From assembly GCA_963793265.1 (NCBI GenBank), contig CAWBZI010000001.1:448001-512000 (forward strand): a stretch of 64,000 nt of DNA. Direction: 5' to 3'. The notes beneath the pieces were generated by a model, which saw only the letters and a program-made list of their open reading frames with translations, was not told where the DNA came from and did not search any database. Positions 1,877-62,225 of the stretch are shown here, piece after piece. Each line of letters opens with the position of its first letter. Positions within the stretch are counted from its first letter, which is position 1. Source of the DNA: an uncultured cyanobacterium. GTDB lineage: Bacteria; Cyanobacteriota; Cyanobacteriia; Phormidesmidales; Phormidesmidaceae. Position numbers and translations under genes: made by a program.

Positions 1877-3553
1877 ATGCGATATCTCATCACCAGCGCC
1901 CTGCCATACATCAACGGCATCAAGCATCTTGGCAACTTGGTGGGCTCGATGCTACCAGCAGATGTGTATGCGCGGTTTTTGAGACAAGAAGGTGAGGAAG
2001 TTCTTTACATATGTGCAACCGATGAGCATGGCACTCCGGCTGAGATTGCCGCACTAGAAGAAGGACTAGATGTAGCCGCCTTTTGTACGAGGCAGTATGA
2101 GCGGCAGGCGGATATCTATAAAAAGTTTGGTCTATCGTTTGATTACTTCGGACGGACATCTTCTACAGATCAAAAAGATTTGACGCAGGACTTTTACCGC
2201 AGCTTAGACAGAGAAGGCTTTATTGAAGAGCGCGAAATTAGTCAGGTTTATTCTGTTGCAGATGAGCGTTTTTTGCCCGATCGCTATGTAGAAGGTACCT
2301 GCCCAAACTGTGGCTACGAGAAGGCCAGAGGCGATCAGTGCGAGAACTGTACGAAGCTTTTGAACCCTACAGACTTAATCAATCCGCGATCGGCAGTTTC
2401 GGGCTCTACTGATGTAGAAGTGCGAACGAGTCGGCATTTGTTTTTGCGGCTCGACCAGCTCAGCGGTGAAGTACGTGACTGGGTAGACGAGCAGACTGAC
2501 TGGCCGAATTTGACTAAATCGATTGCCTATAAGTGGCTAGATGAAGGGCTGCAAAGCCGAGGGATTACGCGCGACCTGAAGTGGGGGGTGCCGGTGCCCA
2601 AAGAAGGCTTTGAGGATAAGGTTTTTTATGTGTGGTTCGATGCGCCGATTGGGTATGTGTCAGCCACTAAGAGCTGGGGCGATCGCGAAAATAAAGACTG
2701 GAAAAGCTGGTGGTACGACGCTAAAGACGTTCGCTACACCCAGTTCATGGCAAAAGACAATCTGCCTTTTCACACCATCATGTGGCCTGCGACCATTTTA
2801 GGCACGCGCGAGCCCTGGAAGATGGCGGACTACATTAAGGGCTTTAACTGGCTGAACTACTACGGCGGTAAGTTTTCCACCAGCTCTAAGCGAGGCGTGT
2901 TCTTAGATCAAGCCCTGGAGATTGCACCGCCTGACTATTGGCGATATATGCTGATGGCCTCTGCGCCAGAGTCGTCAGATTCGGCGTTTACCTGGGAGCA
3001 GTTTCAAACCAAGGTGAATAAAGAGCTAGCTGATAACTTTGGTAATTTTGTTAACCGGATTTTGAAGTTTACGGCCTCAAAGTTTGGCAATGAACTGCCA
3101 GCAGGTGGAGAGCCAGGTGAGGCAGAAGCTGAGCTGGAAGGGCGGTGTGAGGAGCTGGTGGGGGAGTTGCGATCGCACCTACACAACATGGAATTTCGCA
3201 AAGCCACCGAAACCCTCAACGCCCTCTGGTCAGCTGGGAATCAATACATAGACGTACGCGCACCTTGGACTTTGTTTAAGCAAGACAAAGCGCTAGCGGC
3301 AGTTGTCATTCGCACCTGCATCAACCTAATTCGCCTGTATGCAATAGCTTCAGCCCCTTTCATTCCCACCACTGTAGAACAGCTATTCGACGCTCTACAG
3401 CTCACCGAATCAGAACGCCGTAGTACGATGACCGTAGCGACTGACTTAACTATCCTCAAAGCCGGTCGAGCTTTTAACGTTCCACCTGTACTGATTCAAA
3501 AAATAGACGATGATCGTGTAGCCGAACTTAAGAACCAGTATGGAGGTGATTGA
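1877..3553 (+). CDS. metG: Methionine--tRNA ligase
   Basis: 'ITSALPYING..HLGN' HIGH motif, Zn-knuckle CPNC...CENC, 'KFSTS' KMSKS-equivalent, 'YVWFDAPIGY'. Confidence 0.97.
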   Translation: MRYLITSALPYINGIKHLGNLVGSMLPADVYARFLRQEGEEVLYICATDEHGTPAEIAALEEGLDVAAFCTRQYERQADIYKKFGLSFDYFGRTSSTDQKDLTQDFYRSLDREGFIEEREISQVYSVADERFLPDRYVEGTCPNCGYEKARGDQCENCTKLLNPTDLINPRSAVSGSTDVEVRTSRHLFLRLDQLSGEVRDWVDEQTDWPNLTKSIAYKWLDEGLQSRGITRDLKWGVPVPKEGFEDKVFYVWFDAPIGYVSATKSWGDRENKDWKSWWYDAKDVRYTQFMAKDNLPFHTIMWPATILGTREPWKMADYIKGFNWLNYYGGKFSTSSKRGVFLDQALEIAPPDYWRYMLMASAPESSDSAFTWEQFQTKVNKELADNFGNFVNRILKFTASKFGNELPAGGEPGEAEAELEGRCEELVGELRSHLHNMEFRKATETLNALWSAGNQYIDVRAPWTLFKQDKALAAVVIRTCINLIRLYAIASAPFIPTTVEQLFDALQLTESERRSTMTVATDLTILKAGRAFNVPPVLIQKIDDDRVAELKNQYGGD

Positions 3554-3682
3554 GTAGTATTTCTAAGCACTTCTGATACTCGTATCTTGGACATTAGATA
3601 CTGAGTTGCTGTCAGCATATGTATATTTGGGATATGTCTAATCGGTCACTATTTTTTATACTCAAGTAAGTAGAGTTAGTTT

Positions 3683-3922
3683 TTGGGAGGAATAGCACAG
3701 CCAAAACCTTCTATCGTGGACAAGTTCAGGGTAGTTGGAATAGAAAGCGGTAGAAAAGTCTATAGAGACGATACAGAAAATCGATACTACACATGGGATT
3801 CGATGCACGGAGAGTTTGAAGTATTTAACAAAAATGGTCGTCACTTAGGTGCGGTCTGTCCCACTACTGGAGACTTGATCAAGCCTGCTGTGAAAGGCAG
3901 GAAAATAAATAAACAAAATTAG
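3683..3922 (+). CDS. Stand-alone colicin E3-like cytotoxic RNase domain protein
   Basis: 'YYTWDSMHGEFEVFNKNGRHLGAVCPTTG..IKPAVKGRKI' matches the colicin E3 C-terminal RNase pattern (WDSQHGELEGY...GQHLG..DPKTG...R); TTG start. Confidence 0.8.
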   Translation: MGGIAQPKPSIVDKFRVVGIESGRKVYRDDTENRYYTWDSMHGEFEVFNKNGRHLGAVCPTTGDLIKPAVKGRKINKQN

Positions 3923-3932
3923 GAAGCGACAG

Positions 3933-4244
3933 ATGAGTTTTATCAAGATGTGCCTTGCTGGTGATGTTTTAGAAGATGAAATAGATGAATTCGTAGATAG
4001 ATGGCATGACGGTATAATCGGTGAAGGTCAGCAACTATACGAACTCTTAGGGATGACTTGGGAGGAATATTCTCTCTGGGCAACTCGACCATCAATACTG
4101 CCCTTTATTTTAGCTGCGCATAAGAACAAAACGGATGTCACAACTGAGCTTAACCAGGAGAGATATGCCTTAGCAGCTAGGGCCGAAACTGCTAAGGAAG
4201 CTGAGCAAATAGAGGATTGGTTGAAAAGTATAGGGAAGGCATAG
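3933..4244 (+). CDS. Small acidic hypothetical protein (candidate immunity protein or antitoxin)
   Basis: 103 aa with an ATG start and upstream AGGAAG; starts 10 bp after the toxin-domain gene; D/E-rich N-half. Confidence 0.75.
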   Translation: MSFIKMCLAGDVLEDEIDEFVDRWHDGIIGEGQQLYELLGMTWEEYSLWATRPSILPFILAAHKNKTDVTTELNQERYALAARAETAKEAEQIEDWLKSIGKA

Positions 4245-5191
4245 TGGAAGCCGTAGAAAAGATGGCTGCAAGGGTTCTCCACCGGAACGGGCTTATACCC
4301 CCGTATAACCTAGAAGCTTTGGCAAGTAAGTACGGAAACGTTGAATATCACCGATTTCCTCTAAATGCGGATGGAGTTACTGTTGGTATAGGTCGCGACA
4401 CTACACCACAGATTCTAGTCAATAAAGGGATTTCCCAAAGCAGACAGAAATTTACTTTGGCTCATGAATTAGGGCACGTGATAATTCCATGGCACGTTGG
4501 TACAATCGTTTCACATCTAGAGCTAAAAGCTTATGCCCAAGATGAATATCGGCAAATGGAATCTGAAGCTAATCGGTTTGCCGCCGAGCTATTGATACCT
4601 ACTGTATGGACTAAGAAACAAGTAAGTTTCTTTAAATCATACGGAAAGTACCTAGAATTCATCGTTGCCTCAACGGGTGCGTCTAGAGATGCCGTATTAA
4701 TCAAGATCTTTCCTATTCTAGATCAACCTATTGTCTGTGCTCAACATGACGAATCGGGAGAGATCATTAATTACTATCACACTCCATCAGCGCCTCCATG
4801 TTTTGATTTATCGGGAAAGAATATTTCCAGAGACAAGCTGTTTCTTACGCCTTGCAAAACGGAAGAATTTTACTTAGGAGATAGAAGGTATTATCTGTGG
4901 GAGTTTGAGAAAGAAGCAATAGACGAAAGTGATAGTCGAAGCTGGAGGGAAATCCTCTCTATCATCCTCTCTGAAGCAGATTGTGAGCATCTGCAACAGA
5001 ACGTAAATGCTGTCCTGCCAAGTGAAGTTAAGCCAAATAAGCATGGCTCTGTTAATGAGATATGTAACGCTGTTATGAGACGGTACGACGGTAGAGACTC
5101 ATCTAGGCCAGTAGTAGCTCATCCGCTCTTCAAGCAATACGTAGTTAAAAGAGTCAAAGAGCTAATTGCCCGTAGGAAAAAGATGGTATAG
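4244..5191 (+). CDS. ImmA/IrrE family Zn metallo-endopeptidase with a C-terminal extension
   Basis: 'RQKFTLAHELGH' HExxH and 'MESEANRFAAELLIP'. The likely GTG start at 4244 overlaps the upstream TAG (the ORF track starts at 4217). Confidence 0.88.
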   Translation: MEAVEKMAARVLHRNGLIPPYNLEALASKYGNVEYHRFPLNADGVTVGIGRDTTPQILVNKGISQSRQKFTLAHELGHVIIPWHVGTIVSHLELKAYAQDEYRQMESEANRFAAELLIPTVWTKKQVSFFKSYGKYLEFIVASTGASRDAVLIKIFPILDQPIVCAQHDESGEIINYYHTPSAPPCFDLSGKNISRDKLFLTPCKTEEFYLGDRRYYLWEFEKEAIDESDSRSWREILSIILSEADCEHLQQNVNAVLPSEVKPNKHGSVNEICNAVMRRYDGRDSSRPVVAHPLFKQYVVKRVKELIARRKKMV

Positions 5192-5238
5192 CAAAGAATT
5201 CTTTACAAGTCAGTCAGGGAGTAAGGCTGTAAGGAAAA

Positions 5239-5264
5239 GCTGCTTGCTCATGAGAGCAAGCAGC
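5239..5264. terminator. Hairpin between convergent genes (probable intrinsic terminator)
   Basis: GCTGCTTGCTC-ATGA-GAGCAAGCAGC, an 11-bp stem followed by a T-run on the minus strand. Confidence 0.6.
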
Positions 5265-5309
5265 CCATGGAGCTGTATATTTTGTCAAAGCTGAATATTG
5301 GTTAATCTT

Positions 5310-5744
5310 CTATGCGATCGTTTCGCTTAAAACATCGGCGGGCTGATGGCCAATCGCTTCGATAAACGCCGTTCTATTTTTGGGCGAGACTAGGATGAAG
5401 CGCTGTTTGCCGTAGTCAATTTTAAGGCGGTTGATTGACAGGGCTGGGGAAGAAATCCAGGTGCGGCTGGCGGTGACGGAGCGAATTTGTTCTAGCGGAA
5501 CAGACCAAGAGAAGGGGCCTGCTTGAATGCGCAAGATGGCAGAATCAACGCGATAGTACGTGGAGAGTAGTAGCCAAATTGGAATAATCGAAACTACCAC
5601 TAGAGCGCCAATAGTGAGTACCGTGGCCTTAGCGTTTTCATCGGATAAGTTGGAGAGTGCTGCGCTAAATAGAACAATAGGTAGACTGAAGACTAAACCA
5701 TAAAACCAGGGGTCAACGGCGGATCTAAAGAACATATTGAACAC
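5310..5744 (-). CDS. Bacterial PH-domain membrane protein
   Basis: Two N-terminal TM helices followed by 'TYYRV...LRIQAGPF...SSPALSINRLKIDYG...ILVSPK'. Confidence 0.7.
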   Translation of the reverse strand: MFNMFFRSAVDPWFYGLVFSLPIVLFSAALSNLSDENAKATVLTIGALVVVSIIPIWLLLSTYYRVDSAILRIQAGPFSWSVPLEQIRSVTASRTWISSPALSINRLKIDYGKQRFILVSPKNRTAFIEAIGHQPADVLSETIA

Positions 5745-5922
5745 TCACATAAACTCGATAATGGCAGCGATGCGCTGTGTTCTTAGATTACCCAACAAGA
5801 AATATTGATATCTATTGGGCTCAATCAATCAGTTATGTTTGATGTAAATTGGCTACAAGCAGCGGAATTATTGAGCTGTATGTGGTATCTAGAAGGTCAT
5901 ACTGTGATTTGGCTTAGATGAC

Positions 5923-6558
5923 GTGATAGATAGCGCAACGTTAGTTTCGTTTGGGATCGCAGCGGCTTTACTGGTGGCGATGCCGGGGCCTGCGACACTG
6001 TATATTGTGACGCGCAGTTTGGATCAGGGGCGCTCGGCGGGGGTGGCTTCGGTGTTAGGAATTTCGGTGGGGGCGATCGCACACTTCATAGCCGCAGGCT
6101 TCGGCCTCTCTGCCATCCTAATGACATCAGCAACCGCATTCTCTGCCGTCAAATATGCTGGGGCTTTATACCTAATCTACTTAGGCATCCAAAAACTACG
6201 CTCTAACGAAACGCTGAAGATAGATGGTGAGGTACCCAAAGAACCTTTGCTGAAGATCTTTCGCCAAGGCGTTATTGTGAACGTTTTGAACCCAAAGGCC
6301 GCTATCTTCTCTCTGGCCTTTCTACCCCAGTTCATCAATCCTACGGGCGCACCAGTATGGCAGCAGTTGAGCTTACTGTGCTTCGTATTTATATGCATTG
6401 GCCTATTGGGAGATAGCACCTACGCAATGCTTGCTGGGCAAATGCGCCAGTGGATTGTGAAGCACCCTAAGTTTTTGCGCCGACAAAAATACGTGACAGG
6501 CGGCACATATATTGCCTTAGGCATGGCCGCAGCGACGGTAGGGCCGAACCAAAAGTAG
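5923..6558 (+). CDS. LysE/RhtB family translocator
   Basis: 'PGPATLYIV', 'KYAGALYLIYLG', 'NVLNPKAAIF'. Confidence 0.92.
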   Translation: MIDSATLVSFGIAAALLVAMPGPATLYIVTRSLDQGRSAGVASVLGISVGAIAHFIAAGFGLSAILMTSATAFSAVKYAGALYLIYLGIQKLRSNETLKIDGEVPKEPLLKIFRQGVIVNVLNPKAAIFSLAFLPQFINPTGAPVWQQLSLLCFVFICIGLLGDSTYAMLAGQMRQWIVKHPKFLRRQKYVTGGTYIALGMAAATVGPNQK

Positions 6559-6581
6559 GGGATAAAGGAAAATGATCGAGT

Positions 6582-7628
6582 GTGTTGAGGGCTATTGGCG
6601 TGTTTTTTCTGAGTCGCACTAAGTTTGTTACTTTTGTTCTGCTGGGGCTAATAGCTTTACTAAGCACTTCGCTGGTAAGCTGCTATCGTGGTGCGGCAAC
6701 GGGCGGCGGCAATCCAACTGTCGAGTCCTTTGTTGCAGTCACCCAAATCGTCAAACACCCAGCTTTGAATGCCGTTCGCGATGGCATAAAAGAAGCCCTG
6801 GCGGATGCTGGATATAGAGAGGGAGAGTCTTTACGGTGGGAGTGGCTGAGTGCGCAAGGAAGCCCGCCAACAGCAGCGCGGATTGCGAGTAAGTATGCTG
6901 GGGCTAATCCTGATGTGATTGTCGCGATCGCAACCCCAAGCGCCCAAGCTGTCGCAGCAGCAGCGAAAAACATCCCCGTCGTTTTCTCAGCCGTTAGCGA
7001 TCCGGTTGGTGCAAACCTCGTTAACAATATCAATAAGCCTGGCAGCAACATAACTGGCGTTAGCGATCTTTCTCCTATCGCTCAACATCTAGCATTAATC
7101 AGAGAAATCTTACCTGAAGCAGAAACGCTCGGTGTGATTTATAGCGCCGAAGAGAAGAACGCTGCAAGCCTGATTAGTTTATTGAAAGAACAGGCTCCCG
7201 ATCAGGGCTTCAATGAAGTCAAGGAAGCGACAGTATCTACTGCTATTGAAGCGATAGGGGTCGCGCGTAGCTTGGTCGGAACGGTAGACGCAATATACGT
7301 GCCGACTGACTTAAGTATTGACAAGACAGGCATATCGATGCTTGAATCAGTAGCTCAAGTGGGTCAGGATAACGATTTTCCGGTGTTTTCAGGGGATGTG
7401 AACGCTGTTGAAAGGGGTGCGATCGCCAGCATTAGTTTCAACTACTACGACATAGGTCGTCAGACCGGGCAAATGGTAATAAAAGTGCTCGAAGGTAGCA
7501 GACCAGAAAATCTACCCGTCGAATATGTTAGTACCATACAGCTATCTATAAACCCAAAGTCAGCATCAGAAATGGGCGTGACGCTTCCTAGCGAAGTTAT
7601 TGAGCGAGCAGACCGAGTTATTGAATAA
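6582..7628 (+). CDS. ABC transporter substrate-binding lipoprotein (aromatic amino acid-binding type)
   Basis: Lipobox LVSC; 'QIVKHPAL', 'IATPSAQA', 'IPVVFSAVSDP', 'NITGVSD'. Confidence 0.85.
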   Translation: MLRAIGVFFLSRTKFVTFVLLGLIALLSTSLVSCYRGAATGGGNPTVESFVAVTQIVKHPALNAVRDGIKEALADAGYREGESLRWEWLSAQGSPPTAARIASKYAGANPDVIVAIATPSAQAVAAAAKNIPVVFSAVSDPVGANLVNNINKPGSNITGVSDLSPIAQHLALIREILPEAETLGVIYSAEEKNAASLISLLKEQAPDQGFNEVKEATVSTAIEAIGVARSLVGTVDAIYVPTDLSIDKTGISMLESVAQVGQDNDFPVFSGDVNAVERGAIASISFNYYDIGRQTGQMVIKVLEGSRPENLPVEYVSTIQLSINPKSASEMGVTLPSEVIERADRVIE

Positions 7629-7641
7629 AACTACGGTCGAA

Positions 7642-8385
7642 TCAGAAGAACAACAACAGACCCGAATAGCCCAGCGCGCCTGCTGCGAACATGCCAAACT
7701 TGCTCTCGTTCGCCTGTGGTAGCTCTTCTTTGAGCACATTAAGAATGATGCTGCCCGCCAAAAACGCAAACAATACCGCCGTAGCCGCTTCGCTGATTGT
7801 TGTCTGAGTGCCTAGAACCCAGCCAAAGATAACAGCGCCTGCTAGGATCCAGCGCCCTATTTTATCGTAGACATGCTTATGATCGCCGCACAGGCTGTAG
7901 TCATTAACAATAAAATGTAGCGCCATCGCAAAGACATACACCATCAGGCTCACTAGGCCCCCATCTTCGCGATGCATCAGCAGATAGCCAATAAGCGCGT
8001 TGTACAGAGAGAATGAAACCATGTGTAGCCAAAAAACATCGGCCTGAGTGGCGTCATCACCGCCGCTCCGCACACTTCGCTCCCTAGAGGCGTCTGCCGC
8101 TCGCTCTAACCCATAAAATGCAACCATTCCTACTAGAGACAAGATATAGACATGGTGCTCAATGGCATCTATAAACTGCACGTGAGACTGGAGCTGTTCT
8201 TGCGCTTCCCCTAAATCTGGCAAAATATGTACGAACACATACGCTACTGACACGCCGCTGCCTAGCGAAAGCCACCGACTTCGGGGCGACTTCCTTAAAA
8301 ACTTGAGCTTTCCAGCATAGATGTGGATCAGAGCTAGCAGCAAGGCTGACAAGCCCGTGATCCACCAGAGCGAGCTGTCATTCAT
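7642..8385 (-). CDS. Multi-pass membrane protein (ZIP-like His motifs)
   Basis: About 8 TM helices; 'VSVAYVFVHILP', 'AMALHF', 'LNVLKEELP'. Confidence 0.65.
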   Translation of the reverse strand: MNDSSLWWITGLSALLLALIHIYAGKLKFLRKSPRSRWLSLGSGVSVAYVFVHILPDLGEAQEQLQSHVQFIDAIEHHVYILSLVGMVAFYGLERAADASRERSVRSGGDDATQADVFWLHMVSFSLYNALIGYLLMHREDGGLVSLMVYVFAMALHFIVNDYSLCGDHKHVYDKIGRWILAGAVIFGWVLGTQTTISEAATAVLFAFLAGSIILNVLKEELPQANESKFGMFAAGALGYSGLLLFF

Positions 8386-8426
8386 AGCAACCTAAAGATC
8401 TGAGGGGTAGATCTATAGGTTAATGG

Positions 8427-8726
8427 CTATGGTGTTGCAGTACCACCACTTTGTCTGGCTCGTGACGTGCCTTGCTTAGAGAGCACGTCTTCGTCAACAG
8501 CCTGATCGCTCAAGTTGCCTTGGGCTCGCTCAATGGCAGCTTCAGTGGCTTCGGTTACTGGCTGGGCAGCGTCAGCCTGTCTATTCTGAGCCTGTGAAGG
8601 TGATATGGCGGTGGTATCTGCTTGAGAACAAGCAGTAGCAGTGATGACCAAAACGCCCGCTAAAAACACGATTAGTAGCTTGCGCATTTGCTTGTACGCC
8701 TGCACAGTTTGAGAAAGTAAGCTCAT
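8427..8726 (-). CDS. Small lipoprotein, hypothetical
   Basis: Signal peptide 'MRKLLIVFLAGVLVITATAC' with a lipobox; ATG at 8726 preceded by AAGGAA. Confidence 0.65.
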   Translation of the reverse strand: MSLLSQTVQAYKQMRKLLIVFLAGVLVITATACSQADTTAISPSQAQNRQADAAQPVTEATEAAIERAQGNLSDQAVDEDVLSKQGTSRARQSGGTATP

Positions 8727-8886
8727 CGTTTGGTTCCTTATTTTATAAAATCGAACACTGCTGCTGAGCTTATTAGGATATTTATTATTAGTCGTCAGGC
8801 TGAAGACAGACATTCAGCCTAGCCGCTATGGTAAGCGGTATGGCGATAAGGCTTTTCTCTTTCTTTAGATACAGGATACTAACGCA

Positions 8887-9066
8887 ATGAATAACGACTT
8901 TACGCGACTGGCTATTTTACTCTCTATTCTGTTGTTGATTGTATTTCCGTTTGCAGGGCTTGCGCCGCTGCTATTGATTGTGTTTGCGGCTGTCTTTGGC
9001 TGGATGCTACAGCTTGCTGGTACGGTGATTGGTGCAACTGAGCCAGAAGATGTAGAAAGGACATAG
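8887..9066 (+). CDS. 59-aa small membrane protein (not in the ORF track)
   Basis: Manual translation MNNDFTRLAILLSILLLIVFPFAGLAPLLLIVFAAVFGWMLQLAGTVIGATEPEDVERT*; AGGA upstream; strongly hydrophobic. Confidence 0.65.
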   Translation: MNNDFTRLAILLSILLLIVFPFAGLAPLLLIVFAAVFGWMLQLAGTVIGATEPEDVERT

Positions 9067-9202
9067 GCTCAGTAACAGTTGTCTCTTACGGTATAGATTC
9101 GATGGGGTTGAGATCGCAAGAACTCTACTTTTAGAAAGTTAAAAAAAGTAGGCTAATTCGTTGCTATATAGGCTGATGACCTGATTGAAAGGAGCCTTAA
9201 CT

Positions 9203-10063
9203 ATGGTAATTTCTGCCGACCAAATTCCCGCTCAAACGCAAGATAGACAGCCTGCGCTAGAGTCGGAGATGAACCCATCGCCAATTTACGACCGTGACAG
9301 CTACAAAGGTAGCGACAAGCTGAAAGGCAAAGTTGCCTTAATTACAGGCGGCGATAGCGGGATTGGCCGCTCGGTCGCTGTTCTGTATGCCAAGGAAGGC
9401 GCAGATGTTGCAATCTCTTACTTAGACGAGCAGGGTGACGCGGAGAAGACTAAGAAAGAAGTTGAAGCGCTCGGTCAGAAGTGTTTACTACTGCCTGGCG
9501 ATCTTAGCAATGAGCAGTTTTGCCATGAAATAGTTCAAAAGACCGTTGATGAGTTTGGCCAGCTCGACGTTTTGGTGAGTAATGCGGCTGAGCAGTACAC
9601 CGAGAAAGACTGGGACGAAATTGATGCAGCCAGACTAGGCAGCATCTTCAGCACCAACGTATTCCCGATGTTCTACCTGACAAAGGCAGCGCTGCCTCAC
9701 CTAAAAGAAGGGAGCACTATCATCATCACCACTTCGATCAATGCCTACAAAGGCAACGATTCTCTGTTGAGCTATTCGACGACAAAGGGCGCGAATCTGG
9801 CGTTTTTGCGATCGCTCTCCCAGCGCGTCCTCGAAAAAGGCATTCGCGTCAACGGCGTGGCTCCTGGCCCCATTTGGACACCCTTTATTCCTGATGCGAT
9901 GCCGCCTGAGCAAGTAGAAGGCTTTGGGAAGCAGGTACCGATGAAACGTCCTGGTCAGCCCGTAGAAGTGGCGACTTGCTTTGTGTTCTTAGCCTCTGAA
10001 GACTCTTCTTATATGACGGGTCAGGTGCTGCATCCCAACGGCGGTGTTGTGGTCGGCGGATAA
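9203..10063 (+). CDS. SDR oxidoreductase (YhxC/YdaD general-stress type)
   Basis: 'ALITGGDSGIG', 'YSTTK' catalytic motif, 'VAPGPIWTP', 'GQVLHPNGG'; AGGAG before ATG 9203. Confidence 0.9.
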   Translation: MVISADQIPAQTQDRQPALESEMNPSPIYDRDSYKGSDKLKGKVALITGGDSGIGRSVAVLYAKEGADVAISYLDEQGDAEKTKKEVEALGQKCLLLPGDLSNEQFCHEIVQKTVDEFGQLDVLVSNAAEQYTEKDWDEIDAARLGSIFSTNVFPMFYLTKAALPHLKEGSTIIITTSINAYKGNDSLLSYSTTKGANLAFLRSLSQRVLEKGIRVNGVAPGPIWTPFIPDAMPPEQVEGFGKQVPMKRPGQPVEVATCFVFLASEDSSYMTGQVLHPNGGVVVGG

Positions 10064-10098
10064 GCTAATGCTGACGCTTTGAGACACTAGACTCAGCG

Positions 10099-10150
10099 CA
10101 AAACAGGCATACCCTACGGCTCTTTATAGCCTGAAGGTATGCCTGTTTTG
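10099..10150. terminator. Bidirectional terminator-like inverted repeat
   Basis: CAAAACAGGCATACC ... GGTATGCCTGTTTTG, a perfect 15-bp inverted repeat between convergent genes. Confidence 0.7.
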
Positions 10151-10171
10151 TTTAGGCTTGCTCAGTTGTGC

Positions 10172-13901: not shown

Positions 13902-13911
13902 GCAATACACG

Positions 13912-54242: not shown

Positions 54243-54338
54243 CTCTACCTTTCCGCAGAATCCTATAGCGCGGCTGCATTGCTAATGTAAGGAAGTAATT
54301 ATCGCTAAGTTTTCCTTAAACGAGCCGCTATCAAACCT

Positions 54339-54863: not shown

Positions 54864-55017
54864 GGATAAAAAATTCGGTCAATTAGACATAAGCGCTTCT
54901 GCAATGATCTGCAACGGATATCCGCTACGGCGTGAACCCATGGTCTACTATAAATAACTGACCTGATGCAAGGTCTTTGAGTCGTTACTACTGCGCTTTT
55001 TGGTACGCACATTCGCT

Positions 55018-56430
55018 ATGAGCAAAGGCACCCTATTTGACAAAGTTTGGAACGCACATACCGTAGGCACGCTGCCTTCTGGCCAAACTCAGCTATTCAT
55101 CGGCCTGCACCTAATTCATGAGGTGACGAGCCCCCAAGCCTTTGCCATGCTCAATGAGCGCCAGCTAAAGGTGATGTACCCACAGCGCACTATCGCCACC
55201 GTTGATCACATTGTTCCGACTGAAGACCAGTCACGGCCCTTTGCCGATCCGATGGCTGAAAAGATGATGAGCGCGCTTGAGGCGAATACCAAAGAGCACG
55301 GCATTCAGTTTTTTAATGTGGGTTCGGGCAGTCAGGGCATTGTGCATGTGATTGCGCCTGAGCAAGGGCTGACGCAGCCGGGGATGACGATTGCCTGTGG
55401 TGATAGCCATACTTCGACGCACGGGGCTTTTGGTGCGATCGCATTCGGTATCGGCACCAGCCAAGTGCGCGACGTACTCGCCTCCCAAACCCTAGCACTT
55501 GCCAAGCTCAAAGTTCGCCGCATTGAAGTGAATGGCGAGCTGCCGACAGGCGTCTATGCCAAAGACATCATTCTGCACGTGATTCGCAAGCTTGGAGTCA
55601 AAGGCGGCGTAGGATTTGCCTATGAATTTGCAGGCAGCGCGATTGAAAGCCTATCGATGGAAGGGCGAATGACGCTATGTAATATGTCGATTGAAGGCGG
55701 CGCGCGCTGTGGGTATGTGAACCCCGATCAAACGACTTACGAGTACATAAAGGGTCGTGATTTTGCGCCTAAAGCTGAGCAGTGGGATAGCGCTGTGGCC
55801 TGGTGGGAGAGCCTGCGCAGTGACGCCAATGCTGAGTATGACGACTTTGTACAGTTTGACGCGGCTGAGATCGCCCCGACAATCACCTGGGGAATTACGC
55901 CCGGTCAGGGCATTGGTGTAAACGAGTCTATTCCCAAGCCTGAGACGATGCCGGATGATGAAAGGCCAATCGCAGAAGAAGCCTACCGTTACATGCAGCT
56001 TGCGCCCGGTCAGCAGATTGAAGGGGTGAAGGTGGACGTTTGCTTTATTGGAAGCTGCACGAACGGTCGGATTACTGACCTGCGCGAGGCGGCAAATGTG
56101 GCCAAAGGTCGCCACGTGGCCAGCGGCGTGAAGGCGTTTGTGGTGCCGGGCTCTGAGCGGGTAAAGCAGGAAGCTGAGGCTGAAGGGTTAGATAAGGTGT
56201 TTGTCACAGCAGGGTTTGAATGGCGAGAGCCAGGCTGCTCTATGTGCCTGGCGATGAATCCCGATAAGCTAGAGGGCACTCAAATTAGCGCGTCTTCTTC
56301 TAATCGCAACTTTAAAGGCCGACAGGGTTCTTCTTCAGGGCGCACTTTGCTCATGAGCCCGGCGATGGTCGTTTCGGCGGCGGTGACTGGACAGGTAACC
56401 GATGTTCGGCAGCTCGCCCCAGTCGGCTAA
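55018..56430 (+). CDS. leuC: 3-isopropylmalate dehydratase large subunit
   Basis: 'HEVTSPQAF', '[13 protein letters not shown]', 'FIGSCTNGR', '[11 protein letters not shown]', '[10 protein letters not shown]'. Confidence 0.97.
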
Positions 56431-56459
56431 CAGTCGGCTAAGTTCATCGCGACTAAATC

Positions 56460-57272
56460 TTAGCTAGACGCGCTGGTGTAGAACCTTAGCGCAAACTTCC
56501 ACCACCACCTGGATGCCTGGAATAAGGCGGCAGCTAAAACCGCTGAGCCCAGTAGCCAGGTGGCTTCGCTGCGGCCCATCATGGTTTGGGCAGGCACGGT
56601 GGTGAGAAAGGCAACGGGCACGACAAAGGTGAAGAATATGCGGTAGGCGGCGGGGTAGGCAGCCACGGGAAAGCGACCGGCTTCTAGGAGCGATCGCAAC
56701 ACTTCAGTCACATTAAAAATTTTGACGAACCAAATGCTGGTTGCACCCAAAATAAACCACAGGCTGTAAAGGCTGATAACGCCCAGCGCCAAAGGCGGCA
56801 GCACCGCGAGATAGGCCACAGGCGCAAGTTCTAGCTGCGAGCCTGCATAAAAAATAATCATTAGCCCAAAAATCAAATCCGGTAGGCCCCAGGGCGAAAC
56901 CGTGTGGGTGCTTAGCCAAAATTGTGAGCTGATGGGCTTGAGCAGCACAAAGTCGAGGGTGCCTTCTTGCACATAGCCGACGATTTTATTGAGGTTAGGC
57001 ACTAAAAAGGTGGCCGAGATACCTTGCAGCAGAGTAAATAGACCCAAGACGACAAGCGCCTCATTCCATGACCAGCCGTCAAAGGTGTAGCCCGTGCGGT
57101 AAAACAAAAATAGGCCAAACAGGCTACCGGCAAGCCCGCCTATGCTGCTGATCACAGCGACCACAAAGTTAACGCGGTATTCTAATTCGGCAGCGATCGC
57201 GACTCGCCAAAATAGCTGTAGCACTCGCAGATATCGCCCTACGCCTTGCCCGCTATAAAGCCCTTTGACCAT
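56460..57272 (-). CDS. ABC-2 type permease (DUF990-like)
   Basis: 'ELEYRVNF', 'GTLDFVLLKPISSQF', 'GRFPVAAYP', 'FYTSASS'. Confidence 0.88.
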   Translation of the reverse strand: MVKGLYSGQGVGRYLRVLQLFWRVAIAAELEYRVNFVVAVISSIGGLAGSLFGLFLFYRTGYTFDGWSWNEALVVLGLFTLLQGISATFLVPNLNKIVGYVQEGTLDFVLLKPISSQFWLSTHTVSPWGLPDLIFGLMIIFYAGSQLELAPVAYLAVLPPLALGVISLYSLWFILGATSIWFVKIFNVTEVLRSLLEAGRFPVAAYPAAYRIFFTFVVPVAFLTTVPAQTMMGRSEATWLLGSAVLAAALFQASRWWWKFALRFYTSASS

Positions 57273-57489
57273 CTATCTTTGACCCCAGTTCTTTAGATTC
57301 AGTTCCCAGTTTTAACTTTTTTCGCGTACATTAACTATCCGTTTGTCAATGGACATATTGCGTAACATTTGAACTGGAACTTCACCGCCAAAATAAAAGT
57401 CTTACGATAAAAGAGCAAGAATATTAAAAGTAGTCTCACCTACAAGCGATATCTCAAGCAGTAATTGCCATGCTCTCGCCTGCACCTAA

Positions 57490-58191
57490 CTATCCTGCAT
57501 TCAAATACATTTTTAGTTTCTCTTGCAGCCGCTGCCGCGCTCTAGCAATCCGAGACTTCACCGTACCGAGTGAAACGCCTGTGATATTGGCAATTTCCTC
57601 GTACGAAAGCCCCTGCAGTTCGCGCATAGCGATGGTTTTTTGAAACACGTCAGGTAGCTCGGCCATCGCCTGCTTCAGGTGATCGTGAAACTCCTGCGTC
57701 ATCATAGAATCAGCAGGCGTAGGCTCCACTGAAGGTAGCTCCCAGTCATACTGACCATCGCTGGAATAGCGAGGCGCATCTAAAGAGACAGACCCTTTGA
57801 ACCGCTTACGTTTGCGCAGTTCGTCGTAGAACAGATTCGTCGTAATTCTACCAAGCCAGCTCTTGAACTTGGCAGGCTCCTTAAGGCGGTGAATGCTGCG
57901 GTAAACACGAATCCAGACTTCCTGAGCCAGATCAGCTCTATCAGACCAGTCAGAAGCGAGGTGATACAAAAGTTTGTCAACATAGCGCTGGTAGCGGCTC
58001 ACTAGCTCTTCAAAGGCAACCCTATCCTTGTTGCACTGGTCTTGACATCGGCTAACTAAATCGTGGTTAGACAGCTCTGTTAGCGGAATTTCACTGGCAG
58101 GTGTTGTCTGTGGCTCAGATGGCGCTCGAAGCACCTGTAAGGACGCTTTGCCAAAGGTCGCAGGCTGTTTTAATGGAATTAAACTACTCAT
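57490..58191 (-). CDS. ECF RNA polymerase sigma factor (SigG/RpoE-like)
   Basis: 'AFEELVSRYQ', 'DLAQEVWIRVYR', 'FKSWLGRITTNLFYDELRKRK', 'GLSYEEIA.ITGVSLGTVKSRIARAR'. Confidence 0.92.
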   Translation of the reverse strand: MSSLIPLKQPATFGKASLQVLRAPSEPQTTPASEIPLTELSNHDLVSRCQDQCNKDRVAFEELVSRYQRYVDKLLYHLASDWSDRADLAQEVWIRVYRSIHRLKEPAKFKSWLGRITTNLFYDELRKRKRFKGSVSLDAPRYSSDGQYDWELPSVEPTPADSMMTQEFHDHLKQAMAELPDVFQKTIAMRELQGLSYEEIANITGVSLGTVKSRIARARQRLQEKLKMYLNAG

Positions 58192-58590
58192 CAGTTTTTA
58201 GAACTCAATCCTAAATGGGGCTGCACTTTTGTAGATAGAAATCTGTAAATAGAAAGTCGTAACAATGAAGACGCGGTAGACCGACAAAGCGCTCCTAGTA
58301 CAAACACTTTTGCTACCGCATCAGCATTTACCCGTACGTACGTAAGCATTTATTACTACGTGTCGCTTTGTTTAAGTCAACATAGTAAACATTACTTAGG
58401 CCATACATCAGCTAAATAGCCTAATCTTGTTCGTATTATCACTGGAAGGTTAAAAACCAATAATCGTTGAATTGATTAGAATTGATATAAAAGCATTAGC
58501 AAAGGCAGTGAAATTGATGCTCTCCTAAAAGATAGAAGGAGTCATATTTTTTACATCACTATCCATTATGCATAATGAATACATAATATA

Positions 58591-59385
58591 TTATGCGCCC
58601 ATCCCTGAGTAGCGCTTGAGGCCCGCTCGCCATAACTTACGGTTGATAACAAGAGCGATGATCCCCCAACCGGCCATTGTCAGCAGTCCTCGAACGAGAT
58701 CTACCGGTAGCCCTACTAATAGGCTGGCTGGAAAATAGATTAGGTAGGGAAAAGGCGTCCACAGTGCAAACTCTCGAATGGCCGCTGGGAAAAGCTCTAG
58801 CGGGGCGACCATGCCCGACAAGAAGGTGTAGAAGAGAAACCAAAATTGCTCGATGGCGGTCGCTCGCTCTACCCAAAAAGCCAGCATGGCAAAGGTGTAT
58901 TGAATTAAGAACCGTAGGCAAAACGACAGCATGAAAGTGAGCGATCCCCAAAAGAAAGCATAGGGTGTGGGAAGCCACATGGCGTCTGGATAGAGTAGGC
59001 AAAATAGGCCAACTAGCAGCAATATGAACGGCAGACGGGTGAGTCTTTCAGCCAAGTGACCGAAGAAGTGTCGCCAAACTGGGTCAATCGGCTGAAGCAG
59101 TAGCGGCGAAAGTTTGCCTTGCACAACTTCTTTTTCAAAATCCCAGATGACCCACACAACGGTAAGCTGCCTGGCTAAGAAGACGGCCAGGAAATATCGG
59201 GCAAATTCTGTGGGGGTAAAGCCTAAGTCGCCGCTTTGCGCTGCCTGGTTCCATAGGCCCAAAAATATGAGGGGAAAGCTACCCGAAAGCACCCAAAAAA
59301 TTAGCTCTGCGCGGTATTCAACCATGTAGGCGTAATACACCGAGAGAAAGGTTCGCGCGATTCGGAAGGGGCGCGGGCTAGTCAT
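58591..59385 (-). CDS. ABC-2 type permease
   Basis: 'YMVEYRAE', 'GKLSPLLLQPIDP', 'LSGMVAPLELFP', 'RYSGMGA'. Confidence 0.88.
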   Translation of the reverse strand: MTSPRPFRIARTFLSVYYAYMVEYRAELIFWVLSGSFPLIFLGLWNQAAQSGDLGFTPTEFARYFLAVFLARQLTVVWVIWDFEKEVVQGKLSPLLLQPIDPVWRHFFGHLAERLTRLPFILLLVGLFCLLYPDAMWLPTPYAFFWGSLTFMLSFCLRFLIQYTFAMLAFWVERATAIEQFWFLFYTFLSGMVAPLELFPAAIREFALWTPFPYLIYFPASLLVGLPVDLVRGLLTMAGWGIIALVINRKLWRAGLKRYSGMGA

Positions 59386-59411
59386 AGTGTTTCGAGCGGG
59401 TAAGGAGAATA

Positions 59412-60398
59412 TTAGAGAGAGCCGGACTGAAAGACTTTACCGATAACGTCTTCAATGGGGGGTTCGGCTACGGTGAGATCTTGAATGGCGTAGTCGTTTA
59501 ATAGTTTGGAGACGCTGCGGGTTAGGTCGCTTGCTTCTACTAAAAAGGTTGCTTTGCAGCCGTCTAGCGTTTGGAGGTTGCCGTAGGCTAGAAGCGCTGA
59601 TTTTTCGACAGACTGATGGCGCTCAAATTCGACGGAGACTTCTCGATAGGGAGCAAAGCGCTCTAGCAGGCCGTCAAGCAGGCCATCGTAAATGAGGTTG
59701 CCTTGGTGGATGACTAGGACGCGATCACACAAAGCCGTAATATCAGCCATATAGTGACTCGTCAGCAGCACAGTTGCCCCGTAGCGCTGGTTATACTCCT
59801 GTAAAAACTGACGGACGGCGACCTGCGCGTTTACATCTAGACCCAGCGTCGGCTCGTCTAAGAAAAGAACTTGCGGGCGGTGGAGTAAGGCCGCTAGCAT
59901 TTCCGCCTTCATCCGCTCGCCTAAAGACAGCTTGCGCACAGGCTGCTTAATTTGCTCTTGAATAGAAAGCATTTCAGCAAGTTCACTAATGCGCTGGCGT
60001 GATTCGGTTTCTGTCAGGTTGTAGATAGCCGCGTTTATCCTTAATGAATCAAGCGCGGGCAAGTCCCAAATAAGCTGCTGCTTTTGGCCCATTACCAGCG
60101 TGATTTGGCGCAAAAACTGAGCGTCTCGTTCAAAAGGTCTGTAGCCTGAAACGCTGACGTTGCCGGTAGAGGGATGAATGAGGCCCGTAAGCATTTTGAG
60201 GGTGGTGGTTTTGCCCGCACCGTTGGCCCCCAAAAATCCGACAATCTCTCCCGGCTCAATTGTGAAGGAAACGTTTTTGACAGCTTCGATATTGCGATAG
60301 GTGCGGCGGAAGAAGTGGCGCACCGTACCTTTAAGCCCAGGCGCTTTAATCGCGACTGGGTAGACCTTGCCTAAGTTTTGAACGTCGATAATGGGCAT
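59412..60398 (-). CDS. ABC transporter ATP-binding protein
   Basis: 'GANGAGKTT', 'LSLGERM', 'FLDEPTLGLD', 'LTSH'. Confidence 0.93.
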   Translation of the reverse strand: MPIIDVQNLGKVYPVAIKAPGLKGTVRHFFRRTYRNIEAVKNVSFTIEPGEIVGFLGANGAGKTTTLKMLTGLIHPSTGNVSVSGYRPFERDAQFLRQITLVMGQKQQLIWDLPALDSLRINAAIYNLTETESRQRISELAEMLSIQEQIKQPVRKLSLGERMKAEMLAALLHRPQVLFLDEPTLGLDVNAQVAVRQFLQEYNQRYGATVLLTSHYMADITALCDRVLVIHQGNLIYDGLLDGLLERFAPYREVSVEFERHQSVEKSALLAYGNLQTLDGCKATFLVEASDLTRSVSKLLNDYAIQDLTVAEPPIEDVIGKVFQSGSL

Positions 60399-60516
60399 AG
60401 GAATGCGGCGGCGGGCGCTGCTAATTTTTCGCCGTCATTTAAGGCGCACGGTAAATCTTATCACTGGCTCACGGCTGGATCTTTCTATCTGAAGAGGGCT
60501 GGCTGTTGCTTTTCGT

Positions 60517-60915
60517 TTGAAGATGATGGAAATAACGGAAAAGACGATCTTTATCAAGATGACAAACGTGGATTTGATGGCTATCCGCCAGGCAATTGAG
60601 CAGCAAATTAAGGCATTTCAAGACGACGATGCGATCGCTGCTTTTGCTCAGGCTGCCCCCGGTATTCAAATGCAGTTTGGGACGGCTGAGAATTTTGTAG
60701 AAATGGTCAAAGCGGCCTACCCGCCTGTGCATCGGCCTCGCTCGGTGATGTTTGAGGACTTAGTGCAAATTGAAGGGTTTCCGGCTCAGCAGGTGATGCT
60801 AATGGACAATAACGGTCAGTTGATTCGAGCGACCTATACGATGCAGCAGCAGCAGTCGGGTGCGTGGAAGATTGCGGGCTGTTATTTAACGCCGATTGGG
60901 TATGAGCAGGGCTAG
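60517..60915 (+). CDS. DUF4864-like protein
   Basis: 'IEQQIKAFQDDDA.AAF.QAAPGIQMQFG.AENFVEMVK.AYPPV', 'WKIAGC'. Confidence 0.8.
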   Translation: MKMMEITEKTIFIKMTNVDLMAIRQAIEQQIKAFQDDDAIAAFAQAAPGIQMQFGTAENFVEMVKAAYPPVHRPRSVMFEDLVQIEGFPAQQVMLMDNNGQLIRATYTMQQQQSGAWKIAGCYLTPIGYEQG

Positions 60916-60917
60916 GT

Positions 60918-62225
60918 TTAGGACTGGTGATGCTCGTAAAAGTGGCCGATGAGATAGAGTGAGCCGCATAGAACGGTAGGTGAGGTTTGGATTGCAACGG
61001 GTAGTGCTGTTTTGAGATTCGGGTGAATGCAAGTGTTGATTTGAGGGCAGATGGTTTGGGCGATCGCTGCCAGGTTCTCAGGCTCTGCGCTCGAATGATC
61101 AGGTACAGGAACTAGGTGGAGGCGATCGCCTGCCCGCAAAAGTTCTGTAAAAACGCCCTCGTGATCTTTGGTGCTCAACATGCCCATAAGCCAGGTAATC
61201 GACTGATGAGGAGACGTGCGGTTGATATAGGCTCTGAGCGATCGCGCTGCATCTCTATTGTGCGCGCCGTCAATCAATAGATCTTGCCCCTTCCACTGCC
61301 CTCGCTGCAATCGTCCTGGCCATTGGACATTCGCCATGCCTTGAGTGATCGCACTATCAGGAATTTTCCAGCCCTGGGTGCGGAGGGTTTGAATGAGCGT
61401 GATCGCGCAGGCCGAATTTATCCGCTGATGATCGCCCAACAAAGTCTGCGGATACTCAATGCCGTCATAGCTCAGCCGAGGCGGGTGCGTAGAAACTTCT
61501 TCAGCAGGTGTCACCCATACTAGGGGCGCGTCGAGTTTGATTGCATGGGCCTTTATCACCTTCGCCGCTTCGTCAGGCACAGGGCCAACGATCATTGGAA
61601 CGTCAGCCTTCGTAATACCGGCTTTTTCACCTGCGATCTCAGCGATCGTATCGCCCAGTCGCTGCCAGTGATCGCGGCTGATTGAAACAACCGCAGTAGC
61701 CAGCGGCTTTTTGAATACGTTGGTCGCGTCCAATCGGCCCCCTAATCCCACTTCTACAACAGCAATATCGACCTGCTGATCAGCAAAGTATTGCCAGGCG
61801 GCGGCTGTGAAGACCTCGAACTGAGTTGGGGTTGGGATGTTTGGTGCGATCGCCTCTATCACTACTTCCAAACTACTTTGCAAAGCTTCCCAACTAATCT
61901 GCTCACCGTCTATACAAATGCGCTCCGTCCAGTCGATTAAATGGGGTGAAGTATAGCGGCCCGTGCGGTAGCCTGCGGCAGTAAGCACCGCTGATAGATA
62001 GGCGCAAACCGACCCTTTGCCATTAGTCCCGGCAATATGAACAACCGGCACCTGCGCTTGAGGATTGCCCATGTCTTGCAGCAGCCTTTCAATCCGATCC
62101 AAACCCAAATCAACGCCAAAGCGAGCATAGGTTTGCAGGCGCGCCTCAACGGCAGCTTTCGTTATTGCAGAATTTTTCATTTGCGCCTCAACAAGAAAAC
62201 CTTCATCAAAAAAGGGAGATAGCAA
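60918..62225 (-). CDS. folC: Folylpolyglutamate synthase / dihydrofolate synthase
   Basis: 'HIAGTNGKGS', 'YTSPHL', 'EVGLGGRLDATN', 'WPGRL', 'DGAHN', 'CGSLYLIG'; the true start may be ATG 62180. Confidence 0.95.
   Translation of the reverse strand: MLSPFFDEGFLVEAQMKNSAITKAAVEARLQTYARFGVDLGLDRIERLLQDMGNPQAQVPVVHIAGTNGKGSVCAYLSAVLTAAGYRTGRYTSPHLIDWTERICIDGEQISWEALQSSLEVVIEAIAPNIPTPTQFEVFTAAAWQYFADQQVDIAVVEVGLGGRLDATNVFKKPLATAVVSISRDHWQRLGDTIAEIAGEKAGITKADVPMIVGPVPDEAAKVIKAHAIKLDAPLVWVTPAEEVSTHPPRLSYDGIEYPQTLLGDHQRINSACAITLIQTLRTQGWKIPDSAITQGMANVQWPGRLQRGQWKGQDLLIDGAHNRDAARSLRAYINRTSPHQSITWLMGMLSTKDHEGVFTELLRAGDRLHLVPVPDHSSAEPENLAAIAQTICPQINTCIHPNLKTALPVAIQTSPTVLCGSLYLIGHFYEHHQS

What the first reader, a model, noticed from the sequence alone, without database searches (positions are those of the whole stretch)
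3100..61900. HIP1 sites mark local strand-asymmetry switches (G/T-rich 5' side, C/A-rich 3' side)
Seen: around many GCGATCGC sites, the preceding 50-250 bp are G/T-rich and the following bases are C/A-rich, whichever strand is coding. Examples: 3169 (metG, +), 6073 (LysE, +), 16925 (Tab2, -), 18076 (avtA, +), 22917 (kdsB, -), 24379 (kdsD, -), 31394 (GT4, +), 44662 (LysR, +), 55435 (leuC, +), 61846 (folC, -). At 6073 the sequence reads 'ggtgttaggaatttcggtggggGCGATCGCacacttcatagccgcaggcttcggcctctc'. The pattern is self-complementary about the palindrome. Established: HIP1 is highly over-represented in cyanobacteria, is methylated, and has no settled function. Inference: a directional mutational or repair process (nicking, resection or patch repair) starts at HIP1 and leaves a compositional footprint, which would be a clue to HIP1 function. 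I judged this by eye and did not quantify it.
Basis: partly seen in the sequence, partly recalled or inferred. Interest (0 to 1): 0.72.

Follow-up and report, generated by a model that had tools for sequence, protein, structure and literature searches.

The report
HIP1 marks short recombination tract ends
In this cyanobacterium each DNA strand is G-rich just before and C-rich just after the abundant palindrome GCGATCGC (HIP1), and clusters of differences from a wild strain of the same species stop beside it, which likely means that HIP1 is where short, base-biased DNA swaps between relatives begin, a testable job for a sequence unexplained for 30 years.

Summary
Confirmed, and far above chance. 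At fourfold-degenerate sites 4-10 bp from HIP1 (6,888 sites in the genome) a strand is 45% G/12% C on the 5' side and 11% G/46% C on the 3' side, whichever strand codes. A and T barely move. No other palindrome or CGATCG 7-mer does this. The signal fades over about 70 bp with a longer tail and grows with the site's age. It is strongest in this genus (ln G/C 0.93, against 0.28 in other cyanobacteria). Divergence near HIP1 is not raised and C>T is flat, which argues against deamination of exposed single strands. New here: all 7 fully seen clusters of differences from a wild conspecific strain end 4-91 bp from a HIP1 and none spans one (p 6e-5; 0.003 in the worst case). Best reading (0.55): HIP1 is the end-point of short homologous replacement tracts with mismatch-biased retention. 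Polar nick-directed repair is the main rival (0.25). The footprint was not found in ten literature searches. This scan noted it nine times before, eight times on this genome and once on another.

The parts
208..63187 (.). 77 HIP1 octamers (GCGATCGC) across the window, each the centre of a G-rich 5' / C-rich 3' footprint reaching about 150 bp, with a weaker tail
3169..3176 (.). HIP1 in metG (Met-tRNA ligase, PF09334); fourfold G-C +0.32 left, -0.44 right
6073..6080 (.). HIP1 in LysE gene; +0.67 / -0.35
16925..16932 (.). HIP1 in Tab2-like gene (minus strand); +0.76 / +0.29
18076..18083 (.). HIP1 in class I/II aminotransferase gene; +0.54 / -0.18
22917..22924 (.). HIP1 in cytidylyltransferase (kdsB-like) gene; +0.65 / -0.40
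24379..24386 (.). HIP1 in SIS-CBS (kdsD-like) gene; +0.84 / -0.23
31394..31401 (.). HIP1 in GT4 glycosyltransferase gene; +0.59 / -0.28
44662..44669 (.). HIP1 in LysR gene; +0.58 / -0.33
55435..55442 (.). HIP1 in aconitase-family (leuC) gene; +0.56 / -0.43
61846..61853 (.).
2425..2665 (.). Cluster of 9 differences from strain X1, ending 14 bp before HIP1 2679
3235..3326 (.). Cluster of 7 differences (6 within 25 bp), starting 59 bp after HIP1 3169-3176
18063..18072 (.). Pair of differences 13 and 4 bp before HIP1 18076
22998..23226 (.). Cluster of 12 differences between HIP1 22917 (74 bp) and 23283 (57 bp); run X3 has the window allele, and run X5 shares X1's alleles at the first four places
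29982..30081 (.). Cluster of 7 differences starting 25 bp after HIP1 29950-29957
31255..31342 (.). Pair of differences ending 52 bp before HIP1 31394
35161..35259 (.). Pair of differences starting 91 bp after HIP1 35063-35070
23847..24216 (.). Partly seen cluster (13 of the 22 differences of that contig listed); nearest HIP1 to the right is 24379. Left out of the main count and scored as a failure in the worst-case test

Best explanation
HIP1 is likely the end-point of short (about 10-400 bp) homologous replacement tracts: one donor strand would be swapped in starting at HIP1 and running outward to one side, and the mismatches formed would be kept or rejected according to their type, which over time would leave G on the strand 5' of HIP1 and C on the strand 3' of it. 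Shown: the polar footprint, its restriction to the full octamer, its length scale, its growth with site age, unchanged total divergence, and strain-difference clusters that stop beside HIP1. Inferred: that the clusters are imports (33 of 41 differences are synonymous, and some alleles occur in another lineage), that the tracts cause the footprint, and that the donor is transforming DNA rather than a sister chromosome copy. My preferred geometry is Chi-like. An invading strand has its 3' end at HIP1, and heteroduplex extends more readily through stable mismatches (G:G, G:T, G:A) than through C:C, C:A or C:T, so G on the invader wins and C loses. The mirror geometry is not excluded: a donor 5' end at HIP1, with MutS/MutL rejecting G:G and missing C:C. 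The nuclease or binding protein is not identified.
For: Tracts. 7 of 7 fully listed clusters in 28 kb covered by strain X1 end 4-91 bp from a HIP1 and none spans one; simulated p 5.5e-5. The three clusters, laid after the pattern was noticed, give p 6.5e-4 alone. With a coding-only null and two unseen clusters scored as failures, p is 0.0026. 0 of 17 single differences lie within 120 bp of HIP1, against 23% of covered bases. Clustered differences lie a median 96 bp from HIP1; the footprint-weighted median is 109 bp. Between species, divergence left and right of a conserved HIP1 is less correlated than across control conserved 8-mers (150 bp: -0.0007+-0.0003 vs +0.0005+-0.0003). Rates. Gains of G on the 5'-side strand rise (A>G x1.5-1.6, C>G x1.2-1.7) while G>C and G>T fall (x0.5-0.8), with total divergence unchanged. 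For transversions the split between raised forward and lowered reverse rate is 0.50+-0.08, as for a fixation bias. The six base-pair shifts (G/C 1.04, G/A 0.64, G/T 0.63, T/C 0.52, A/C 0.35, T/A 0.05) roughly follow computed mismatch-stability differences (2.42, 1.64, 1.26, 1.64, 1.26, 0.09 kcal/mol). Age: ln(G/C) is 0.24+-0.14, 0.56+-0.08 and 0.77+-0.04 for HIP1 held by 1, 2 or 3 of three species. ComEC is present. In PCC 7002, extending a homology arm by 8 bp to include a HIP1 raised integration 7-fold unmethylated and 83-fold methylated (10.1101/2024.09.10.611283). E. coli mismatch repair misses C:C and repairs G:G (PMC5021808).
Against: Only seven clusters, from one strain comparison, three of them mere pairs, and the tool's tables were cut. 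On 133 three-species gene sets a 'strand 5' of HIP1 wins' repair model fits better than an antisymmetric conversion bias (lnL +11.1, resampling p 0.04). G>A (x0.94-0.99) and C>T (x1.03-1.11) did not move as pure conversion predicts, and for transitions the forward share is 0.79+-0.10. Mismatch energies do not predict differences between sequence contexts within a base pair (0 of 6 correlations significant). A conspecific pair from another family with a weak footprint (L189 vs L096, 289 differences, 66 conserved HIP1) shows no boundary at HIP1. The cross-HIP1 decoupling is under 2 standard errors at 45 and 90 bp. The alleles inside the tracts show no clear direction by my hand tally.
Confidence: 0.55

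Rival explanations
1. Polar nick-directed repair with no donor. A nick at methylated HIP1, on either strand regardless of age, is followed by 5'-to-3' removal and resynthesis of that strand. Polymerase errors (mostly a misinserted G) are then fixed on the strand 5' of HIP1 and erased on the strand 3' of it. This is a one-directional form of Elhai's proposed GmeC-directed mismatch repair.
For: Best constrained fit to three-species data (lnL -41616.5 vs -41627.6 for six-parameter conversion). Sums of complementary rates are roughly conserved and C>T/G>A are flat. MutL is present in 37 of 37 genus genomes. An m5C methyltransferase is conserved in 37 of 39 genus genomes.
Against: Does not explain mostly synonymous difference clusters abutting HIP1, or alleles shared with another lineage. 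Elhai's model makes the 7-mers active, but they carry almost no footprint (means 0.14, 0.02, -0.10 vs 0.94). The fit margin is slim, and the model assumes no recombination. No Vsr match in this genome.
Confidence: 0.25
2. Selection or molecular drive on the flanks themselves: a HIP1-binding, uptake or translocating protein prefers G-rich 5' and C-rich 3' DNA.
For: Fixation-like rates fit this equally well. There is an extra short component within about 10 bp, an 11.5-bp phased A/T period around HIP1, and strong preferences at positions 2-3.
Against: The smooth decay over hundreds of bases, the cancellation between neighbouring sites and the lack of any motif do not look like a binding site. 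New HIP1 sites arise without the footprint. It could account for the part within 10 bp.
Confidence: 0.1
3. Mutagenic exposure of single-stranded DNA 5' of HIP1 (a resected break or gap), giving C>T and A>G deamination, or error-prone patch synthesis. This is closest to the first reader's wording.
For: The geometry fits a 3' overhang ending at HIP1. A>G is raised x1.5-1.6. A free fit leans towards raised forward rates (0.63 overall).
Against: C>T is flat, total divergence is flat, and reverse transversions fall. Purine content at fourfold sites is 0.65 on the 5' side and 0.30 on the 3' side, which transitions alone cannot readily produce. The deamination model has the lowest likelihood of seven.
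Confidence: 0.07
4. An artefact of codons, transcription, replication direction or long hairpins centred on the palindrome.
For: First and second codon positions and amino-acid use also shift.
Against: Strongest at silent sites and mirror-exact on both gene strands. Present in all 8 fourfold codon boxes, all three frames and intergenic DNA. Both flanks show it in 25 of 25 windows whatever the local skew. No position-matched complementarity between the flanks.
Confidence: 0.02

Closest known systems
HIP1 as an enhancer of natural transformation in Synechococcus PCC 7002 (10.1101/2024.09.10.611283; parts 1-3 of 4 and passages read)
   Same: Same octamer. A HIP1 at the outer end of a homology arm raises integration, more so when methylated, and the authors propose a Chi-like role.
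   Different: The parts read report efficiencies only, with no tract ends, polarity or base bias. AddAB was not needed for the HIP1 effect.
Chi sites with RecBCD/AddAB (as summarised in the same preprint; otherwise recalled)
   Same: A short abundant octamer at which recombination would start, acting to one side and fading with distance.
   Different: HIP1 is a methylated palindrome acting in both directions and independent of replication direction. The scale here is about 0.1 kb. A compositional scar at Chi was not found in my search.
Elhai's proposed GmeC-directed mismatch repair (PMC4390886; passages, part 3 of 8 and section 3.4 part 1 read)
   Same: Nicking tied to methylated HIP1 decides which strand survives.
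   Different: It predicts active 7-mers and a reach of about 1 kb, and in the parts read says nothing on flank composition beyond 1-3 base palindromic extensions. Here only the full 8-mer works and the effect is polar.
GC-biased gene conversion and strand-asymmetric patterns at meiotic hotspots (recalled; PMC7615360 seen in a search listing only)
   Same: A non-adaptive fixation bias around recombination start points that reshapes silent and even amino-acid sites.
   Different: The bias here is G over C on one strand. The strong-over-weak component is only about 0.05-0.1 against 1.0 for G versus C. The anchor is a fixed DNA word in a bacterium.
Helicobacter pylori microimports (PMC9426483; abstract read)
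   Same: Very short imports after natural transformation (mean 28 bp) alongside longer ones.
   Different: The abstract gives no sequence anchor or base bias, and H. pylori lacks mismatch repair, whereas MutL is kept here.

Membership tests
HIP1 | GCGATCGC strongly over-represented, about one per kb | tested here: met
   6,888 sites, 1.16-1.35 per kb on all 7 contigs; observed/expected 39
HIP1 | Methylation of the first C by a CGATCG methyltransferase (DmtC type) | tested here: inconclusive
   A PF00145 enzyme is conserved in 37 of 39 genus genomes, and GTGATCGC, the 5mC deamination product, is 3.5-fold over-represented. Specificity is inferred, not shown.
Chi-like recombination hotspot | Exchange tracts end at the site | tested here: met
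   7 of 7 clusters, p 5.5e-5 to 0.0026; small sample; not seen in a weak-footprint lineage
Chi-like recombination hotspot | Non-palindromic, oriented with replication | tested here: not met
   Palindrome; both flanks equal in 25 of 25 windows
Chi-like recombination hotspot | Recognition by RecBCD/AddAB, with the 3' end loaded with RecA | not testable with these tools
   Needs biochemistry; addAB deletion did not remove the HIP1 effect in PCC 7002
Biased gene conversion | Fixation bias (forward rate up, reverse down) without a higher total rate | tested here: inconclusive
   Met for transversions (0.50+-0.08) and total divergence; not for transitions (0.79+-0.10); a repair model fits better by 11 lnL
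Biased gene conversion | Favoured alleles shifted to high frequency within populations | not testable with these tools
   Only contigs of a few runs, with cut tables
GC-biased gene conversion | Strand-symmetric preference for G/C over A/T | tested here: not met
   Strong-minus-weak shift about 0.05-0.1 against G-minus-C about 1.0
Elhai GmeC-directed mismatch repair | The 7-mers within HIP1 are active | tested here: not met
   Mean footprint 0.14, 0.02, -0.10 vs 0.94
Elhai GmeC-directed mismatch repair | MutL present; a GmeC nickase exists | tested here: inconclusive
   MutL in 37 of 37 genus genomes; MutS not searched; no nickase identified
Very-short-patch repair | Vsr endonuclease | tested here: not met
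   No PF03852 match in this 99%-complete genome

The most novel reading that the evidence does not exclude
HIP1 is a bidirectional, methylation-boosted start site for micro-recombination across cyanobacteria. It drives a strand-polar conversion bias (G kept on the strand ending at HIP1, C lost) strong enough to shift silent G:C ratios to about 5:1 next to the site and to change amino-acid use. In this species most of the strain differences seen (41 of 58) would enter through such tracts.
Probability: 0.42. Interest if true: 0.9.

Novelty: new variant of a known kind. Interest (0 to 1): 0.8.

Why it matters
HIP1's function has been open for three decades, and recent work ties it to transformation without a mechanism. 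The footprint gives a polarity, a length scale (about 10 bp, 70 bp and a tail), a base hierarchy and a requirement for the full octamer. The strain data place exchange ends at the site. Each of these can be measured in a standard transformation assay. If right, a strand-polar conversion bias is a little-recognised force on bacterial codon and amino-acid use, and it would confound codon-bias and selection estimates in cyanobacteria. It could also guide placement of homology-arm ends in cyanobacterial engineering.

Tried and rejected
Hairpin or template switching: no excess complementarity at matched positions. Replication direction: both flanks equal in 25 of 25 windows. Loss of mismatch repair in the genus: MutL in 37 of 37. 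Vsr: none. A GHKL ATPase lying beside uvrD or the methyltransferase in some genus members looked like a candidate partner, but it is found in only 21 of 37 genus genomes and not in G004, G007, G009, G015 or G001, which have the footprint. Its single-sequence fold was useless (pLDDT 32). m5C methyltransferase as the switch: not clean. Non-genus loci with a match give 0.32/0.19/0.19 and those without 0.24/0.11/0.06; G056 (match) gives 0.82, but G057 (no match) 0.83 and genus g5 (match) 0.17. The genome-contig scan returned four unrelated loci. The metagenome scan returned 80 loci, only 6 with HIP1 above 0.3 per kb and one usable conspecific pair, which showed no boundary effect. PMC4513875 held none of the mismatch-type terms searched. 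Amplitudes outside the genus rest on 5-40 kb per genome, so single-genome values are noisy and the G056 contrast is unreplicated. No paper supplements were read; flank analyses in the supplements of PMC4390886, PMC5861425 or PMC13756078 could bear on novelty.
Full report
Observation. The window holds 77 HIP1 sites, and the ten named ones are at the stated coordinates. The left-minus-right keto skew is 9-10 standard deviations above random placement at 25-100 bp. The window is G000:C1:448001-512000 of a 5.68-Mb genome with 6,888 HIP1.

Anatomy. At fourfold sites 4-10 bp away, the sense strand is A .20 C .12 G .45 T .23 upstream and A .18 C .46 G .11 T .25 downstream, an almost exact mirror, so the effect belongs to the DNA and not to the message. 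It is weaker at first and second codon positions and present between genes. It appears in all 8 fourfold boxes and after any next base, and it cancels between two close sites (ln G/C 0.07 when both lie within 30 bp). The best of five curves tried is a step of 0.46 within about 9 bp, an exponential of 1.36 with length 68 bp and a tail of 0.2; none fits fully (chi-square 329 on 53 points). The order on the strand 5' of HIP1 is G > A~T > C. Both flanks show it in 25 of 25 250-kb windows, in all three frames, with no position-matched complementarity.

Specificity and cause. HIP1 gives z = 86 among 142 palindromic 8-mers; CGATCG and GATC away from HIP1 give nothing. Of 12 one-base variants only GTGATCGC keeps most of the footprint (0.69 vs 0.94; the next two give 0.27-0.28). 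It is 3.5-fold over-represented, so about 72% of such sites would be decayed HIP1, matching the 73% of signal kept. Among orthologs of G004, G009 and G007, sites held by one, two or three species give 0.24, 0.56 and 0.77 (n = 17, 92, 383 site-genome cases). HIP1 therefore comes first and the footprint accumulates afterwards.

Breadth. In 20-kb samples, 9 of 9 genus genomes show it (z 3.0-8.7; pooled ln G/C 0.93+-0.08 at 4-30 bp). Forty-six loci from other HIP1-bearing cyanobacteria pool to 0.28+-0.03, and six control palindromes give -0.10 to 0.08. G029, with 62 sites and no C5 methyltransferase match, gives -0.33+-0.13. Four loci lacking HIP1 enrichment were tested with their own abundant palindromes (GGGATCCC, GGCGCC, GCCATGGC, CGGCCG) and gave -0.20 to 0.06. 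A DmtC-like m5C enzyme is in 37 of 39 genus genomes but in only 1 of 13 other family members sampled; its link to amplitude elsewhere is loose.

Rates. From 174, 223 and 181 ortholog pairs, fourfold divergence is 0.471 at 4-30 bp and 0.466 far away. On the 5'-side strand, against far sites, A>G is x1.60, C>G x1.72, T>G x1.28, C>A x1.36, C>T x1.11, G>A x0.94, T>C x0.70, G>C x0.58, G>T x0.67 (my ratios; reversibility assumed; the pairs share branches). With gene-specific rates, purely protective and purely mutagenic models fit 54 and 16 composite lnL worse than a fixation bias. On 133 three-way gene sets a free non-reversible fit gives A>G x1.54, C>G x1.40, C>T x1.08, G>A x0.97, G>C x0.73, G>T x0.46, T>C x0.93, with wide errors from only 8 bootstrap rounds; deamination fits worst. 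A 'strand wins' repair model beats antisymmetric conversion by 11 lnL, p 0.04. The rates thus argue against the simple single-strand damage story but do not choose cleanly between conversion and repair, and the recombination described next breaks these models' tree assumption.

Living population. Six metagenome runs from two studies hold the stretch or part of it. Laying contigs on 22001-42000 showed that strain X1 differs from the window in dense clusters next to HIP1; 2001-22000 was then laid as a check (35 of X1's 38 places listed). I used 58 differences on contigs whose differences were all or nearly all listed (28 kb, 27 HIP1), and left out two contigs listed in part (13 of 22) or not at all (0 of 7). 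Joining differences up to 110 bp apart gives 7 clusters, ending 14, 59, 4, 57, 25, 52 and 91 bp from a HIP1, none spanning one; the 17 single differences all lie more than 120 bp away. Simulated p is 5.5e-5, 6.5e-4 for the check region alone, 0.0016-0.0024 for the four clusters of six or more, and 0.0012-0.0026 with the two omitted contigs scored as failures. Five control 6-mers gave p 0.018-0.375. Thirty-three of 41 clustered differences are synonymous (11 of 17 singles are too), and run X5 carries X1's alleles at eight listed places where X3, where it covers them, matches the window. That suggests imports from a diverged lineage rather than fresh errors. Between species, divergence is less correlated across HIP1 than across control 8-mers at 150 bp, and weakly so at shorter range. 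A conspecific pair from a weak-footprint family showed no such boundary.

Mechanism. Short replacement tracts anchored at HIP1, with mismatch-dependent retention, account for the anchor, the length scale, the additivity, the age dependence and the flat divergence. The base hierarchy follows mismatch stability across the six base pairs but not across contexts within them. That favours, without proving, an invading strand whose 3' end is at HIP1; mismatch-repair escape of C:C (PMC5021808, passages) would give the mirror geometry. ComEC is present, and the cyanobacteria are often polyploid (established knowledge), so the donor could be foreign DNA or a sister copy; diverged alleles point to foreign DNA at least some of the time.

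Literature. Searches. None listed a paper on flank skew or tract ends at HIP1; one search returned nothing. In PMC13756078 'skew' refers to sampling; its results link HIP1 to pilus and competence genes and RadC (parts 2-3 of 6). PMC5861425 has no hit for skew or asymmetry (passages). PMC4390886 reports only short palindromic extensions. PMC13663708 (passages) describes D-loop nucleases with loose sequence specificity. The library lacks most subscription papers, and no supplements were read. Earlier notes of this scan reported the footprint nine times; a word search for tracts or breakpoints found none.

Verdict. The feature is real, strong and apparently unpublished. The new step is evidence that exchange tracts end at HIP1, on a small sample. 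Interest 0.8; new variant of a known kind.

Noticed in passing
genome-wide, 10-130 bp from HIP1: A/T content at degenerate sites oscillates with an 11.5-bp period in phase with HIP1 (amplitude 0.010 against 0.002-0.004 around control G+C-rich 8-mers), as if DNA were bent or wrapped in register with the site.
   Followed up: partly
genome-wide, codons within 45 nt of HIP1: Amino-acid use shifts: Met, Val, Glu and Gly are commoner upstream, Thr, Asn, Ile, Pro and His downstream (ln ratio +0.36 to -0.29). Met may partly reflect start codons.
   Followed up: partly
genome-wide: HIP1 sites avoid each other at short range: spacings of 8-20 and 20-40 bp are 0.27 and 0.67 of expectation. Palindromic extension at positions 1-3 is also under-represented.
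   Followed up: no
window 36101-37134: A DDE_3 (IS630-like, family name recalled) element in two ORFs with TA ends; one X1 contig joins across it, so the insertion is polymorphic in the population.
   Followed up: partly
window 40092-41306: ISAZo13-type transposase (PF07592) with raised depth in runs X3-X5, suggesting several copies.
   Followed up: no
window 44335-45244: The LysR gene appears split into two ORFs, each with part of the substrate-binding domain.
   Followed up: no
window 28214: A 12-base deletion in X1 lies between HIP1 28144 and 28260, on the contig whose 7 substitutions were not listed.
   Followed up: no
G000:C6:850646-854517; L080, L081, L083, L086, L103: uvrD is followed by a GHKL ATPase. 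In other genus members this ATPase precedes the DmtC-like methyltransferase, sometimes with a type II restriction enzyme behind it, suggesting the genus took its m5C enzyme from a restriction-modification module.
   Followed up: partly
L037 (G107): A family member with no HIP1 or CGATCG in 20 kb; GCCATGGC is its top palindromic octamer (7 copies).
   Followed up: no
G004, G007, G009: Synteny breaks every 5-50 kb and identity is mosaic (76-93%), suggesting frequent rearrangement and exchange between species.
   Followed up: partly
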